A stretch of DNA of 64,000 nucleotides from Octopus vulgaris (GCA_951406725.2 OX597819.1:126170001-126234000); one strand, 5' to 3'; positions 12,185 through 62,298 are shown, counted from the stretch's first letter. A program made the numbers and translations. The notes: a model not told the origin generated them from the sequence alone.

Positions 12185-12711
12185 ATATATATATATATAT
12201 ATATATATATATATATATATATATATATATATATACGAGCAAAAGGGCCCCCGTCCAATGGACGGTGCTGAGTTGTCAAACATTTAAACCAAATTTTCTC
12301 ACAACAACTTGTTCGACCGACCCATTGAGAAACACTGATTTAACCTAAATCTGAGTCACCAGCCAAAGGAGAAATAAAGATAAACCTTTTCTATTCCAAA
12401 GTTTATCAAGTTTCCCACGGCTTTATTGATCGCATTCTCACCTGGAATCGCCTTGATACCGTCGGCATCTACATAGAAAATTTGAGCGCAATTGGACGGA
12501 GGATGCCCGAGATCCTAGAAGCCACACGCACACAGACAAAACGGATTTTATATAAGAGATACAGTGTGTGTGTGTGTGTGTGTGTGTGTGTGTGTGTGTG
12601 TGTGTGTGTGTATTTGTCCCTCTACCATCGCTTATATATATATATAGATATACATAAGGAGAGTTTACGAAAACAGATGTATTAGTATAACACTCAAGAA
12701 TAGAAAAATTC

Positions 12712-12745
12712 TTTTACGTTTCGAACCTACGCTCTTCTACAGAAA
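12712..12745 (-). ncRNA. Minimal hammerhead-like motif with variant core CUGUAGA, in a pLTR-like repeat (12655-12790)
   Basis: Minus strand: uuu CUGUAGA a gagc guag guuc GAAAC GUA aaa. Same repeat family as 61630-61820. Confidence 0.55.
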
Positions 12746-13089
12746 GGGACACAGAAAAAAACAAGGAGAGAAAAAATGTTTGTAGTGGCATATATATATA
12801 TATATATATATTTTATATATATATATAACTAATGTAGGATAAAATTTTTTTCGGGAAAAAAATTTTATCAATGGCCAGCATATCAAAAATACCTTTAAAG
12901 GTTAAATTTATAAATAATTTACAAGACAAGGGCAAAAGAAAAATTCCAATGCCAAATATGCCGAAAAAAAGACAAAAATTGTCAATCACCATTATAATTT
13001 ATGTGTCCCGAAACAAACCGATAGAAATCTCTAAAAAATTCGTTATTTCCGTATTGGTCCAATTTCGTAGTTAATTCATAAGAATTTTC

Positions 13090-13200
13090 TCCTCCATGGA
13101 CCCTTAGTAAGGCATGTGTTAAATTTGAATGAAATTGGTTGTGTAGTTCTCAAGTTTTAGGGAAATACACAGACAGACAGACACACATTCTCAGTTTTGT
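13090..13200 (-). mobile_element. Non-autonomous Helitron-like 5' fragment
   Basis: Minus strand reads tatacaaaactgagaatgtgtgtctgtctgtc..caaccaatttcattcaaattt, the same layout as the 20122 element. Confidence 0.5.
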
Positions 13201-13258
13201 ATATATATGTATATATATATATGTATATATATATATATATATATATATATATATATAA

Positions 13259-13505
13259 TAATAAATATTAGGGAATAAATCCAAATTTACAGGGAAAAAT
13301 CAGATTTAGGATTGAATCCAATTTTATAGTAAAATATTATATAATATTAATTAGAGACAAAACCACTATTATGCAAATCAAACAAAGAAAGACTTAATCC
13401 AATACATAAAAAATTTTATATAAATTAAATAAAATTAAATTAGCCACTACAATTGTTTCGTGTCTCTTCTAAGGACATTCATCAGGTGGTTTTCAGATCT
13501 TCTAT
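13259..13505 (-). mobile_element. Family-A PLE pseudo-LTR with tail, ending at (TA)n
   Basis: Homologous to 19845-20042, 21177-21340, 23175-23415, 32042-32210 and 49231-49494; contains a hammerhead. Confidence 0.8.
13444..13489 (-). ncRNA. Minimal type I hammerhead ribozyme
   Basis: Minus strand: ccac CUGAUGA aUGUC cuuagaaga GACAc GAAAC AAUU GUA gugg. Stem I ccac/gugg; palindromic helix III ACAAUUGU. Confidence 0.85.
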
Positions 13506-13867
13506 TCAATTTTAAGTTATGCATACACACATACATACATATATATTTGGAATTTACAAAAGAAACGAACAAAAGACGAACACGGGTATGTAAACAGCAA
13601 ACAGGTTTATTAGTTTAAACGCTCCGGACTTAGGAAAATTTATATATGGAGTACTACTCATTTTAAAAATAGATATAGGGGATACAAGAATTCATTTATT
13701 CACCCCTATATAAAATATTCCACGATATTAGCATCATACATTAACCACCTCATACATTCTAACATTGAGTAACATTGAATCAACACCATAGAACACATAC
13801 TAAATCGTATAGGCTTTGCATCAAGGAATCGAGTAGCATACTATACGCTAGTAATAGAAATAAAGAC

Positions 13868-14860
13868 ATTTCCTTTATTAGGCACTCAGGCCACTAACTC
13901 AGAGGGGACACTACAAGGACAGACACAACACCACAGTGGGGACAAAAAACACAAAACGAATGAGTATGAATATTATATAATAATGAAAGATGAATGGCTG
14001 CATGGGCCCCACTCCTCATGCAGTACCATTTGAACATTTGTATACACAGTCACTATCTATTGTTTTTTCTTTCCTTAATTATCGTTTTTTTCCAAAACTT
14101 TTTCCTTTCTTTTTTCCTTCTTTTTTTGGAAAAAAAAGCAATTAATTTTACTTTTATTCCTCTTTAACGCCTCATGTAAGGCTCCAGTTCTAACAGGTCG
14201 ATTACTGGTGAACTCATTGATTACTCATTGAACTCCACCAGTGCTCCGGCTGGGTCAATTTTACTTCCGCACATGTCTCTCAGTTTCTTATAGGTTTCCC
14301 TATCCACCACAATGGCCTTCACACTCTCTGGGTACACGTCGTTTGGTAACTTTACCCTTATAATCTGCTTTAACTCTACTATTGTTTTCTCCATCTCCTC
14401 GTTCTTGGAATAGGTCACAAAATTCCATTTGTAACTCCCTCCTCTCGGCTTTCTCTTTTCTTCCTCCACTACCCTTCCTATTATAGATTCCTCTATACTC
14501 TTCTCTGAGTCTAGGACCTTCTCTTTCTTCGTCTCTGCTGTAACCAGTTTCTCCATTTCGTCCTCTTGTAGTTGAATTCCTGAGTCTTCCCTCAATTTAC
14601 CTTTCATCTTCATATTTGTTTCCTCCTTCTCTGACTCTTTTTCACACATCTTCTCAATTATTTTTCTCTTTCCTTTTCCGTCTCACTTTTATCATCTTTC
14701 TTTCTCGTTACCTCTTTCTTTTCCATCTCTTCTTTCTTCTTTTTCTGATTAGTCGGTGGTGGGCTTACCTTACCGCTCCTCCTTCTTTTTCTTTCCACTA
14801 GTGTGAATTCTTCTACCGCTGTTGTCTCATTATTCTCACCTGTTACTGTCTCTCTCTGTG
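13868..14860 (-). mobile_element. Probable LINE remnant: charged ORF1-like reading frame (14221-14860) plus a 3' UTR sharing the SINE-B tail
   Basis: Two adjacent E/K-rich ORFs separated by one stop. 13868-13924 resembles the SINE-B 3' end, including AATAAA. No catalytic motif seen. Confidence 0.4.
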
Positions 14861-59642: not shown

Positions 59643-60110
59643 ACATCAAAATGCTTCGTGGTATATCCTGGAAGTATATTTATATAACATTCGACAGATA
59701 TTGTATTATTAGCTAGGATTCATTCAACCTCAACGAATGGCCTAGAAAGTTACATATTTACGTAAGCTAAAAATATATGTTGCGGGATGGAGACTTTAGT
59801 CAAACTTATTGAAGAAATTTACACACACACAAACACACGTGAACACACATACACATGTATATATATTATATTATATTATATTATATTATATTATAGTCAT
59901 ACTTCTTAGAGTCGTTAATCTGCAGCAAATGTGTAGTATCCACTTTAAAAGTTTTAGTTGATGGTAAGGACGGAATACTTGATGTTGTTTAGTACTAGGT
60001 CATCAAAGATGAACCCGTGATGAAATTCTTTCGAGCCGAGACGATCAACAATATCTTGTGTTTTATGTACTATAAAAACAGTATGGCGAAATTGCGGATG
60101 GATTTAGCAG

Positions 60111-60416
60111 TTGTTGTTGTTTGTACCTTCTCGAGCCATGCCTGGCTCATAAGGGCCGGTTTCCCGGTTTCTTAGCGTATAGGTTCCCCACCTGGACGGG
60201 ACGACGGTCTGTCACAGGTGAGCTGCAAGATGTAGGAGGAATGAGTAAGGGAAAGTTGTGGCGAAAGAGTCAGCAGAAGTTTCGCCATTACCTTCTGCCG
60301 GAGCCGCGTAGAGCTTAGGTGTTTCGCTCATAGACACACACATCGTCCGGTCTGAGATTCTAACCCGCGGGTCCTCAACCGCGAGTCCGCTGCTCTAACC
60401 ACTAGGCCATGTGCCT
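60111..60416 (-). mobile_element. SINE-C, tRNA-derived, with (AAC)n tail and TSD tagcagtt
   Basis: Minus-strand head ggcacatggcctagtggttagagcagcggactcgcggttgaggacccgcgggttagaatctc carries A and B boxes. Confidence 0.8.
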
Positions 60417-60946
60417 AGCAGTTAGATTTAGCAAGTCGTGTAACTACATAGAAGTGTAAATACTTAGTGGCTCTTATCGATCTAAGACGATTTTTTTCTG
60501 GTGGTTATAATACCGGTTTCGTAAGGGGATAAAGGTATGGTCTACTTAACTAAAACGTAAAGAGACGTAACTGAATACCAATGGTACTATCTCAGTTACG
60601 TATGTATGTATATAGATATACACACCAGCACACCCACATACATATTTGTGCATGTGCACGTGTGTATGTCTCTATAGATGTGTATATTTATGTGTCTTTA
60701 TATATGTATATGTGTGTGTGTGTGTGCACCTGTGTATGTGCGTGCATATTGACAAATTAGAGATATGATAACTAGAAGCCTACTACTGGTGGCCAATTAC
60801 AACAGTACAACTTGTGCACGATCAGGCGTTCCATGATTAAGCCGGCAACCGAACAACAAGCCTACAGAATAAAAAACAAATACAAAGAGAACAAAACTTG
60901 ACAAAGAGCGGGTGGGACTAGGTGAGTCAACGATCATCTAATATAT

Positions 60947-61180
60947 ATATTTCTTTACTAGCCACAAGGGGCTAAACACAGAGGGGACAAACAAGGACAG
61001 ACAAAGGGATTAAGTTGATTATATCGACTCCACTGCGTAACTGGTACTTAATTTATCGACCCCGAAAGGATGAAAAGCAAAGTCGACCTCGGCGAATTTT
61101 GAACTCAGAACGTAGCGGCAGATGAAATACCGCTAAGCATTTCGCCCGGCGTGCTAACGTTTCTGCCAGCTCGCCGCCTT
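60947..61180 (-). mobile_element. SINE-B, full length, 16-bp TSD acgatcatctaatata
   Basis: TSD on both sides. Confidence 0.93.
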
Positions 61181-61689
61181 ACGATCATCTAATATAATGA
61201 TTCTCAAACCTTATTGCCCTTAGACTCTTTTGCTTCTTATTTGACTCTATTAGCCCGTCTTCATCTTGCCAGTCAATGTTTAAAAAAAACTCCCATTATA
61301 TTTTTGTAATCAGATATTACTGAGAGTTGTATAAATTAGTAAAATACATTGTTTTGAAGAAGTATAACCAGTTTAATGTACAAAATCATATTTGAACCCT
61401 CAGGTCAAACTGAACCTGGTTGACAATCACGGATCTAATAGTATGTATAAATGCATGTGTCTGTGTGGGTGCGCGCGCGTGTGTATATATGCATATATAT
61501 GCCTGTATATATATATGCATGTATATGTATATGTATACATATATCTATCTATCTATCTATCTATCTATCTATCTATCTATCTATCTATCTATCTATCTAT
61601 CTATCTATATATATATATATATATATCGTTATGATAGATCGTTAGCCACTACACATTTTTTTCTCTCCTTGTTTTTTCTTCTGTGTCTC

Positions 61690-61723
61690 TCTCTGTAGAA
61701 GAGCGTAGGCTCGAAATGTAAAA
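61690..61723 (+). ncRNA. Hammerhead-like motif with variant core CUGUAGA, in (TA)n-flanked unit 61627-61818
   Basis: ucu CUGUAGA a gagc guag gcuc GAAAU GUA aaa. Confidence 0.5.
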
Positions 61724-62019
61724 GACTTTTTCTATTCCTGAGCGTTATACTAATACATCTGTTTGTTTTGTACACCACCTGTCTTCGTCTTTTGTTTTTT
61801 TTTCGTAAAATCTCCCTATATATATATATATATATATATATATATATATATATATATATATATAATGGTATATTCTGTTAAGAACGTAGCAGAGAACAAT
61901 ATAAAGCTTGTCCACTTTCAGATTTCACCTTGTGCCTTTCAGTAGTAGTACCATACGTACTTTCAGGCTTGCGTTTGAGCATCTGTAGTATGTGAATAGA
62001 AGGAGTACAGTTGAACATC

Positions 62020-62298
62020 TATTTTTCAGCCACTACAATTGTTTCTGCGCAACATAGTTGTCCAGGCGTGCAGGTACTCGATTATGCAATCGTTTCCCTG
62101 CATTATGAGATCTATATGTGTTTCCTCAGGCGATATTTATATATTGTCTCCGTAAGTTGAAATTACGGAGACAGTATTTACATACCTCATGAAGAAACAC
62201 AGCTAGATCTCATAATGCAGGGAAACGGTTGCATAATCTAGTACCTGCACACCTGGAGAACTACGTTGTGTAGAAAGAATTGTAGTGGTTGAAAAATA
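62020..62298. mobile_element. Diverged fold-back, arms of about 135 bp, degenerate hammerheads near both outer ends, left tail from 61864
   Basis: Centre tgtctccgtaa gttgaaa ttacggagaca. Right arm cac CUGGAGA..GAAAG AAUU GUA gug (62250-62287); left arm minus strand GAAAC AAUU GUA gugg. Confidence 0.85.

What the first reader, a model, noticed from the sequence alone, without database searches (positions are those of the whole stretch)
12655..62298. Population of hammerhead-tagged, (TA)n-targeted, non-coding fold-back elements
Seen in sequence: at least 12 inverted-repeat units from several unrelated sequence families (16387, 16951, 21177, 30694, 32042, 46878, 48585, 49231, 53413, 53730, 54166, 58436, 62020). 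Most follow one plan: (TA)n, short arm, spacer, long arm with an extra tail, (TA)n. Complete minimal type I hammerheads occur at 13444, 17020, 21274, 23196, 30867, 30924 and 46434, with partial or variant ones at 12712, 16469, 58480, 61690 and 62250. Where they lie in fold-backs they read outward from the centre. Established: PLE pseudo-LTRs carry minimal hammerheads with a palindromic helix III, can occur in inverted orientation and have a 3' tail, and some PLE clades target microsatellites. Inference: a diverse non-autonomous PLE-mobilised system, roughly one unit per 5 kb here, that seeds RNA hairpins and self-cleaving motifs genome-wide. The parts are known; I cannot tell whether this cephalopod expansion has been described.
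Basis: partly seen in the sequence, partly recalled or inferred. Interest (0 to 1): 0.88.

Follow-up and report, generated by a model that had tools for sequence, protein, structure and literature searches.

The report
Spliced Penelope retrotransposon fold-back stubs
These hairpin-shaped inserts, many with a predicted self-cutting RNA motif, are largely end pieces of a known kind of jumping gene (Penelope-like); in the best-studied family most short pieces lack an intron that the protein-coding copies keep, so they were likely copied from ordinary spliced RNA, which bears on an open question about how these elements copy themselves.

Summary
The observation largely holds: all 13 fold-backs exist and 8 canonical-core hammerheads occur against 0.04 in shuffles, but only 3 fold-backs carry a complete one. 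They are not mainly a separate non-autonomous system. Family A (13258, 19862, 21177, 32042, 49231), 16951 and 48585 are ends or pieces of Hydra-clade Penelope-like elements; family A has intact 837-840 aa ORFs in this genome. Hydra elements, (TA)n targeting, inverted arms and tails are published, including for Octopus, and this scan noted such fold-backs before on other DNA of this genome. What I did not find in print: family A's terminal repeat holds a 1.1-1.8 kb GT-AG intron just before the hammerhead. 40 of 58 loci found with the hammerhead exon have it precisely removed, whereas 0 of 12 informative ORF-bearing copies do. The 21177-23418 unit is an intronless copy of two exons from another chromosome joined at that acceptor, duplicated in both arms. 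These templates were therefore likely sense, spliced RNA, against a published antisense-template idea. Arms were likely primed from both ends of the cut. No RNA or cleavage data. Known kind, informative variant.

The parts
13258..13521 (-). Family A1 single stub: spliced leader (13521-13499) joined to hammerhead exon (13498-13258), then (TA)n; hammerhead 13489-13444
   Evidence: 98-100% copies genome-wide; leader is followed by GT in intron-bearing copies
21181..22176 (-). Short-ended arm of the exon-trap retrocopy: family A2 hammerhead exon (21181-21324, hammerhead core at 21312) plus reverse copy of donor exon 2, truncated
   Evidence: 98.7% identical to the long arm, same chimeric junction
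22184..22271 (+). Donor exon 1 (G000:C19:70502011 onward; followed by GTGAGT in the donor); preceded by a 16-nt stutter at the centre junction 22172-22183
22272..23187 (+). Donor exon 2 (G000:C19:70508701-70509639; preceded by a pyrimidine tract and AG, followed by GTATGT in the donor); the 6.6-kb intron is absent here
23188..23418 (+). Family A2 hammerhead exon, starting exactly at the PLE's splice acceptor, with 79-nt tail, then (TA)n; hammerhead core at 23200
16945..17300 (+). Family D fold-back: 3' end of a second Hydra-type PLE; minimal hammerhead 17020-17072 without palindromic helix III; 146-nt tail
48585..49177 (.). Family H fold-back (arms 48585-48695 / 48883-48993): internally deleted piece of a Hydra-type PLE; spacer is the region around an ORF start; no hammerhead in this copy
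49231..49489 (.). Family A-related fold-back cut off just 3' of the hammerhead; tail 49231-49318
   Evidence: 79-85% to family A
32042..32207 (.). Family A-related small fold-back, no hammerhead
19846..20058 (+). Family A-related single stub cut off 3' of the hammerhead
30625..31135 (.). Family E fold-back with two outward hammerheads (cores 30900 minus, 30927 plus); relatives form partial tandems of a ~345-355 nt unit, no RT found: retrozyme-like
53370..53686 (.). Family I fold-back, related in plan to family E, truncated 3' of the hammerhead that relatives carry
46878..47174 (.). Family G fold-back (arms 46934-46981 / 47127-47174), decayed variant hammerhead in the spacer; a relative ends both 2.3-kb arms of a fold-back holding RT-like fragments
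41403..41617 (-).
12655..12790 (-). Family B single unit, variant hammerhead core CUGUAGA at 12742; 77-78% relatives lie collinear downstream of a PLE ORF
61640..61816 (+). Family B single unit, variant hammerhead near 61690
46364..46558 (+). Family F single unit with fixed 5' start, hammerhead 46433-46467; no ORF link; inverted partner in 1 of 29 loci
16387..16597 (.). Family C fold-back (99% arms, tail), hammerhead cut inside the core; no ORF link shown
58436..58614 (.). Family L fold-back with tail, partial hammerhead at 58502-58482; no ORF link shown
62000..62330 (.). Family M older fold-back (85%), variant hammerhead core CUGGAGA; no ORF in 14 loci
53731..53990 (.). Family J older fold-back (77%) with tail; no hammerhead found; no ORF link shown
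54166..54226 (.). Family K terminal mini fold-back (81%); relatives carry a hammerhead further 5'

Best explanation
The traceable fold-backs are end pieces of (TA)n-inserting Penelope-like retrotransposons, and in family A most were likely reverse-transcribed from a short, sense, spliced RNA started at the promoter in the element's terminal repeat. Shown: the autonomous element is terminal repeat [24-28 nt leader, GT-AG intron, hammerhead exon] - 837 aa RT/endonuclease ORF - 3' UTR - second terminal repeat ending at one of two fixed AU-rich sites 76-79 nt apart, then (TA)n; short stubs join leader to hammerhead exon precisely; ORF-bearing copies keep the intron. Inferred: the endonuclease opens a (TA)n tract; both 3' ends, being self-complementary, prime cDNA on the RNA, one at each fixed site; both cDNAs run toward the RNA's 5' end, stop independently and are joined by short microhomology, which gives a head-to-head fold-back with one long and one short end and outward hammerheads, usually from one template. 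Inferred: the intron is removed only when it is next to the RNA's start, so long read-through templates keep it. Inferred: the acceptor in front of the hammerhead can also be joined to exons of other transcripts, giving processed copies such as 21177-23418. The hammerhead is likely a mostly uncut passenger in these single-copy RNAs.
For: ORF link: family A hammerhead exon lies 54-55 nt before the ATG and again 5.5-7.7 kb after it in full-length loci; ORF intact (837-840 aa) in 5 of 10 fetched; motifs match the Hydra alignment in PMC8557442's supplement. Splicing: the leader is followed by GT in 32 non-redundant rows (16 A1, 16 A2), intron 1.06-1.3 kb in most A1 and ~1.8 kb in most A2, ending in tttag; 40 of 58 loci found with a query starting at the acceptor are leader-joined, 17 keep the intron, 1 uninformative; two donors 4 nt apart are both used (L123, L139); both acceptor variants occur in spliced and unspliced copies, so splicing happened more than once. 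12 of 12 informative ORF-start loci keep the intron, 5 more are truncated past it (17 of 18 classified); no spliced junction has the upstream promoter flank. Retrocopy: one donor locus in the genome, both junctions at GT/AG sites, third junction at the exact PLE acceptor, same junctions in both arms. Arms: 30 of 30 adjacent family A pairs are head-to-head; partner arm ends at the short site; the short-ended arm reaches further 5' in about 10, the long-ended in 13, ties 7, and carries the whole ORF in L251 and L253, which simple snap-back copying cannot give. Arms share non-consensus alleles in 9 of 13 A1 pairs. 24 of 30 partner arms reach the leader, none starts at the hammerhead cut site. Families D and H also tie to Hydra-type ORFs.
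Against: No RNA data: transcription start, capping and splicing are read from DNA only. The third exon (an A2 copy with acceptor, same strand) was not found in 365 kb downstream of the donor nor among the 40 best of 1838 candidates, so cis-splicing at that locus is not shown. Loci are the best-scoring 40 of hundreds to thousands of candidates and the queries demanded a complete long arm, so proportions are biased toward young, complete stubs. One pair (L009) has arms differing at 7 recurrent sites, 2 pairs are uninformative and 1 (L027, wrong partner picked) should be dropped; A2 pairs are too alike to test. One insertion has two long ends (L126/L145). One copy (L245) starts at the hammerhead cut site. 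An extra 5' G (cap mark) is unambiguous in only 1 of 6 arms reaching +1. The 837-aa protein has no Pfam RT or GIY-YIG hit and no PDB hit; its assignment rests on motifs. Six families have no ORF link and family E looks like a retrozyme.
Confidence: 0.72

Rival explanations
1. The short units are self-sufficient non-autonomous families (SINE-like or retrozyme-like): a spliced founder with an internal promoter amplified on its own, using PLE enzymes in trans.
For: Stubs outnumber ORF-start copies (1838 vs 250 first-look candidates). D. virilis Penelope has an internal promoter in this region (PMC2377424). Family E forms partial tandems with no RT in 24 loci; family F has a fixed 5' start and no ORF in 29 loci. 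One A1 subfamily was seen only in spliced form.
Against: Spliced stubs occur in two subfamilies with different leaders, two donors and both acceptor variants shared with intron-bearing copies; they are 98-100% identical to the ends of intact autonomous copies. This rival probably holds for family E and perhaps F and M, not as the origin of family A.
Confidence: 0.15
2. Fold-backs arise by self-priming or snap-back on an antisense template, the model offered for rotifer Penelope elements to explain head-to-head palindromes and intron retention.
For: PMC3846280 proposes it; ORF-bearing copies here do keep the intron; arms usually share alleles.
Against: An antisense template cannot lose a sense-strand GT-AG intron, yet both arms are spliced in most stub fold-backs; neither arm is consistently nested in the other. 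It remains possible for the long copies only.
Confidence: 0.06
3. The 21177-23418 chimera formed by reverse-transcriptase template switching from a spliced PLE RNA onto a host RNA, not by splicing to the PLE acceptor.
For: The leader end and the donor exon end share 3 nt (CTT); no third exon was found near the donor.
Against: The junction falls exactly at a GTATGT donor on one side and at the PLE acceptor on the other.
Confidence: 0.05
4. The fold-backs are sequencing or assembly artefacts.
For: Young arms are 98-100% identical; independent long reads were not available.
Against: Outer ends are fixed per family across chromosomes, arms are asymmetric, and older units have arms diverged to 77-87%.
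Confidence: 0.02

Closest known systems
Hydra-clade C-terminal EN+ Penelope-like elements, including Hydra-1_Obim of Octopus bimaculoides (Craig et al. 2021, PMC8557442; passages and supplement rows seen)
   Same: DKT, CxCX5C linker, no CCHH, CxxC and CxH around conserved E and N, sense hammerhead at the 3' end, (TA)n insertion; the paper also describes inverted 5'-truncated copies and a tail at one end for PLEs.
   Different: Family A is longer (about 6.2 kb from ATG to end vs generally under 3 kb), has clear terminal repeats with a 1.1-1.8 kb intron and a 76-79 nt tail (30-40 bp in the paper), KWK for RWK, and an Asn-rich insert; Hydra-1_Obim is a different family. Intronless stubs are not mentioned in the passages seen.
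Drosophila virilis Penelope terminal repeat (PMC2377424 and PMC4209133; passages)
   Same: Start site, short first exon, intron, then hammerhead whose helix I begins near the intron's end; most transcripts spliced.
   Different: Intron 75 bp there; genomic copies are described as keeping introns, whereas most short copies here have lost it.
Adineta vaga Penelope elements with inverted pLTRs and in-trans capture of host genes (PMC3846280; passages)
   Same: Head-to-head inverted repeats, tail, microhomology joins, TCACT initiator-like motif, Asn-rich ORF inserts, mobilisation of host sequence.
   Different: Captured genes kept their introns and an antisense template was proposed; here the captured transcript and the stubs are spliced.
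Metazoan non-LTR retrozymes (PMC7229834, passages; bioRxiv 10.64898/2026.07.22.740005, parts 1-3 of 5)
   Same: Non-coding ~150-500 nt units with type I hammerheads related to PLE terminal repeats; family E (30694) fits in size and partial tandems.
   Different: Defined by tandem arrays and circular RNA; family A, D and H units are single or inverted and are colinear with autonomous ends.
L1 twin priming (recalled, not read here)
   Same: Two target ends prime on one RNA and give an inversion joined by microhomology.
   Different: In L1 the two cDNAs cover different parts of the RNA; here both arms cover the same 5' part, from two fixed sites.

Membership tests
Hydra-clade PLE (family A) | Single ORF with PLE-type RT and C-terminal GIY-YIG-like endonuclease | tested here: met
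   837-840 aa ORF; RT motifs align by eye with the Hydra alignment; 47 homologs incl. Argonauta. No Pfam or PDB hit; structure prediction not available.
Hydra-clade PLE (family A) | DKT motif, CxCX5C linker, no CCHH, CxxC and CxH around E/N | tested here: met
   SDKTRN, CTCRDKSNC, CYLC...E...N...KCRH; definition
Hydra-clade PLE (family A) | RWK motif at the N-terminus | tested here: inconclusive
   RIKWKAF here vs RMRWKAF in Hydra-1_Obim: same position, K for R
Hydra-clade PLE (family A) | Sense hammerhead in the terminal repeat and (TA)n insertion | tested here: met
Hydra-clade PLE (family A) | Generally short (<3 kb) | tested here: not met
   about 6.2 kb from ATG to 3' end; a stated tendency, not an absolute criterion
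Hydra-clade PLE (family A) | Placement in the Hydra clade in an RT tree | not tested
   reference sequences were not held as session sequences
Minimal type I hammerhead of PLEs | Core CUGANGA/GAAA/UH with helices I and II, short or palindromic helix III, extra base after A9 | tested here: met
   8 motifs vs 0.04 shuffled; helix pairs differ compensatingly between related families E and I in the catalogue, no formal covariation statistic
Minimal type I hammerhead of PLEs | Self-cleavage as a dimer | not testable with these tools
   cofold energies favour dimers by 6-13 kcal/mol for 6 motifs, without shuffled control; no assay
Non-LTR retrozyme (family E) | Non-coding tandem unit with a hammerhead in each monomer | tested here: inconclusive
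   partial direct repeats giving ~345-355 nt monomer in 3 of 24 loci, no locus with two tandem hammerheads, no RT in sense upstream
Non-LTR retrozyme (family E) | Circular and linear monomer RNAs | not testable with these tools
   needs northern blot or RT-PCR
Non-LTR retrozyme (families A, D, H) | Tandem organisation independent of an ORF | tested here: not met
   units are single or inverted and colinear with PLE ORF ends

The most novel reading that the evidence does not exclude
Penelope-like elements copy sense RNA by priming from both ends of the cut at two fixed sites, and their famous intron retention comes from position-dependent splicing: the terminal-repeat intron is removed only in RNAs that start right before it, which become hundreds to thousands of intronless fold-back stubs, while long read-through templates keep it. 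The same acceptor traps exons of other transcripts, so PLEs make processed, poly(A)-less, palindromic retrocopies in this genome.
Probability: 0.5. Interest if true: 0.72.

Novelty: new variant of a known kind. Interest (0 to 1): 0.52.

Why it matters
How Penelope-like elements form tandem and inverted ends and why they keep introns is called open in the papers read (PMC8557442, PMC3846280). This genome holds young copies in both spliced and unspliced form beside intact source ORFs, so template strand, priming sites and the rule for intron loss can be read from DNA and tested with a candidate active element. At about one fold-back per 5-7 kb (not all PLE-derived), these stubs are a large and probably under-annotated part of the genome, and each intron-bearing copy carries a working splice acceptor in front of a predicted ribozyme.

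Tried and rejected
Rfam scan: only microsatellite and hairpin miRNA noise in the rows shown. 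Strict hammerhead descriptor missed motifs with the extra base after A9 and was replaced. Pfam and PDB sequence searches gave nothing for the 837-aa ORF; structure prediction could not be run. No RNA holder listed for the retrocopy. Contigs of three other DNA runs showed only the unspliced donor form and none spanned the centre junction; one guessed RNA run had nothing laid: no evidence either way. The donor locus itself was not examined with reads, so splicing there is not shown in RNA. Third exon not found in 365 kb downstream of the donor. The class counts are not used because leader-only hits of intron-bearing copies fell into the spliced class; one search replaces them. An extra 5' G as a cap mark: 1 clear, 3 ambiguous, 2 without, not claimed. 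First guesses dropped: that the ORF is antisense to the hammerhead (one locus-specific inversion, L219); that two templates held by a hammerhead dimer make the arms (only L009 fits); that family C is linked to a PLE ORF (a (TA)n tract separates them); that the 781-aa PLE family is the source of these stubs (no canonical hammerhead found in its repeats); that the zinc-knuckle ORF is part of families E and I (upstream in only 3 of 24 E loci). Paper searches for spliced or intronless PLE copies, exon trapping or twin priming by PLEs found no such report (open-access library only; supplements of the bioRxiv preprint not seen).

Full report
Setting. The window is G000:C6:126170001-126234000 in a 2.80-Gb, 227-contig genome. 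It is probably an octopus: the best named homologs of its retroelement proteins come from Argonauta hians and Octopus bimaculoides. This is an inference.

Observation. Self-BLAST with microsatellites masked recovers 12 of the 13 listed fold-backs (0-1 in 10 shuffles); the 16951 unit has a ~22-nt short arm seen by eye. Eight of 13 show the whole plan with (TA)n at both ends. Only 3 fold-backs hold a complete motif, 4 a partial or variant one, 6 none. In 200 kb of arbitrarily placed stretches there are 27 fold-backs, 10 with (TA)n at an arm end (background 1.5% per side), and 10 canonical motifs, 7 of them in one array (shuffles 0-1). The window is typical of the genome.

Family A is the end of an autonomous element. 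The 13258 unit has 672 first-look candidates and the 23188 unit 1838; the 40 scored in each search are 98-100% identical. Walking upstream from longer copies led to an RT and endonuclease ORF in the same orientation. Ten full-length loci show: terminal repeat, 54-55 nt, ATG, ORF (intact at 837-840 aa in 5 of 10), about 1.7 kb, second terminal repeat ending at position 152 or 231 of the hammerhead exon, then (TA)n. The protein has DKT, YRDD, a CxCX5C linker, no CCHH, and CxxC and CxH around E and N, which define the Hydra clade in PMC8557442 (passages); its RT aligns by eye with the Hydra alignment in that paper's supplement, which also lists Hydra-1_Obim with a hammerhead and (TA)n preference. 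Pfam and PDB searches gave no hit, so the assignment rests on motifs.

Most short copies are spliced. Short units begin with a 24-28 nt leader that, in long copies, lies 1.1-1.8 kb upstream, follows a TCACT-like initiator and is followed by GTATGT or GTAAGT; the hammerhead exon follows tttag (32 non-redundant leader-GT rows). Of 58 non-self loci from the two searches whose queries began at the acceptor, 40 are leader-joined, 17 keep the intron (two of these are arms of one insertion) and 1 is uninformative. Two donors 4 nt apart are both used, and both acceptor variants occur in spliced and unspliced copies. In contrast, 12 of 12 informative ORF-start loci keep the intron, 5 are truncated past it and 1 of 18 was not classified; no spliced junction carries the upstream promoter flank. 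The start-exon-intron-hammerhead layout matches D. virilis Penelope (PMC2377424, PMC4209133; passages), where genomic copies are described as keeping introns. PMC3846280 (passages) proposed an antisense template to explain that and the head-to-head palindromes, while not excluding an unspliced sense template. Spliced, head-to-head stubs exclude an antisense template for these insertions. I infer that the donor is used only near the RNA's start. My ten paper searches found no report of intronless PLE stubs (open-access library only).

The 21177-23418 unit is a processed retrocopy. Its internal 0.9 kb has one other copy, on C19, 99% identical. There, exon 1 is followed by GTGAGT, exon 2 lies 6.6 kb on after a pyrimidine tract and AG and is followed by GTATGT. 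In the window the exons are joined and exon 2 is joined to the first base after the PLE acceptor. Both arms (98.7% identical) share the chimeric junction. No same-strand A2 copy was found in 365 kb downstream of the donor, so the trapping copy may be polymorphic or further away, or the join may be in trans or by template switch.

How the arms form. All 30 adjacent family A pairs are head-to-head, the partner arm ends at the short site, and junction overlaps are mostly 0-12 nt by BLAST boundaries. The short-ended arm reaches further 5' in about 10 pairs, the long-ended in 13, with 7 ties; in L251 and L253 the short-ended arm carries the whole ORF. Simple snap-back copying predicts that the long-ended arm always reaches further, so both arms were likely primed from the target ends; both end sites are AU-rich. 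Arms share non-consensus alleles in 9 of 13 A1 pairs; 2 are uninformative, L009 is discordant at 7 recurrent sites and L027 picked a wrong partner. With the shared rare junctions (L123, the window unit) this points to one template as a rule. One insertion has two long ends. 24 of 30 partner arms reach the leader and none starts at the hammerhead cut site; one other copy does (L245). The template was thus usually uncut, as expected for a minimal hammerhead that needs a dimer (PMC4209133).

Other families. D (16951): 97-99% copies, adjacent inverted partner in 14 of 24 loci with a fixed short end, Hydra-type endonuclease 560-590 nt upstream in 2 loci and an ORF start 73 nt after the tail in 1; many copies start near one site and are colinear with long copies, with no intron. 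H (48585): the spacer is the region around a Hydra-type ORF start in several loci. G (46878), B (12655, 61640; through 77-78% relatives) and P (41403) tie to PLE ORFs of Neptune-like type by best match among my four query proteins. E (30694): partial tandems in 3 of 24 loci, inverted partners in 13, no RT in sense; a zinc-knuckle ORF without RT lies upstream in 3, which earlier notes read as a separate inserted element. C, F, J, K, L and M have no ORF link in what I fetched.

Earlier notes of this scan in the same genome report the same fold-back stubs, the long/short rule, stops at the start site and exon trapping; a word search for spliced intronless stubs found none. They are leads, not support.

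Verdict. Real, abundant and mostly a known by-product of Hydra- and Neptune-type PLEs, mixed with retrozyme-like units. The spliced-versus-unspliced split and the duplicated processed retrocopy are the informative part. All mechanism is inferred from DNA; samples are the best-scoring copies and favour young, complete stubs.

Noticed in passing
L052, L054, L055 (e.g. G000:C6:133342000-133351500): A second young PLE family with many intact 781-aa RT+GIY-YIG ORFs, direct terminal repeats in (TA)n, an overlapping upstream ORF of up to 479 aa, and no canonical hammerhead by my patterns.
   Followed up: partly
L051:3048-6766; window 13540-14870 (minus): Zinc-knuckle (CCHC) ORF without RT between ~1-kb direct repeats that end in a variant hammerhead and the family I sequence; only homolog is an O. 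bimaculoides CCHC protein. The window stretch has a similar-looking remnant by eye, not detected by tblastn.
   Followed up: partly
L249:2208-4718: The Hydra-type ORF has a long Asn-rich insert between RT and linker, like the N-rich inserts reported for Adineta Penelope ORFs.
   Followed up: no
L219, L220, L223: Family A2 insertions with tandem 1.74-kb repeats of the leader-intron segment and large nested inversions; in L219 both arms carry the ORF start antisense.
   Followed up: partly
L197:2099-4513 (G000:C1:20002099 onward): Array of seven identical hammerheads at ~360-nt spacing, two facing left and five right: a two-armed retrozyme insertion.
   Followed up: no
window 47480-48251 (minus): Decayed PLE RT/endonuclease remnant between units 46878 and 48585.
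   Followed up: no
window 13095-13200: Element end resembling Helentron/HINE-type termini (recalled, not tested), abutting the family K unit 12828-13094.
   Followed up: no
window 14870-15900: Mariner-like transposase remnant on the minus strand (recognised by eye; label recalled).
   Followed up: no
L288; window 22172-22209: Short stuttered repeats of the 5'-most template sequence at fold-back centres.
   Followed up: no
window 34918-34951: Short (TTAGGG)n-like tract inside an element with 29-bp inverted ends 34817-35245.
   Followed up: no
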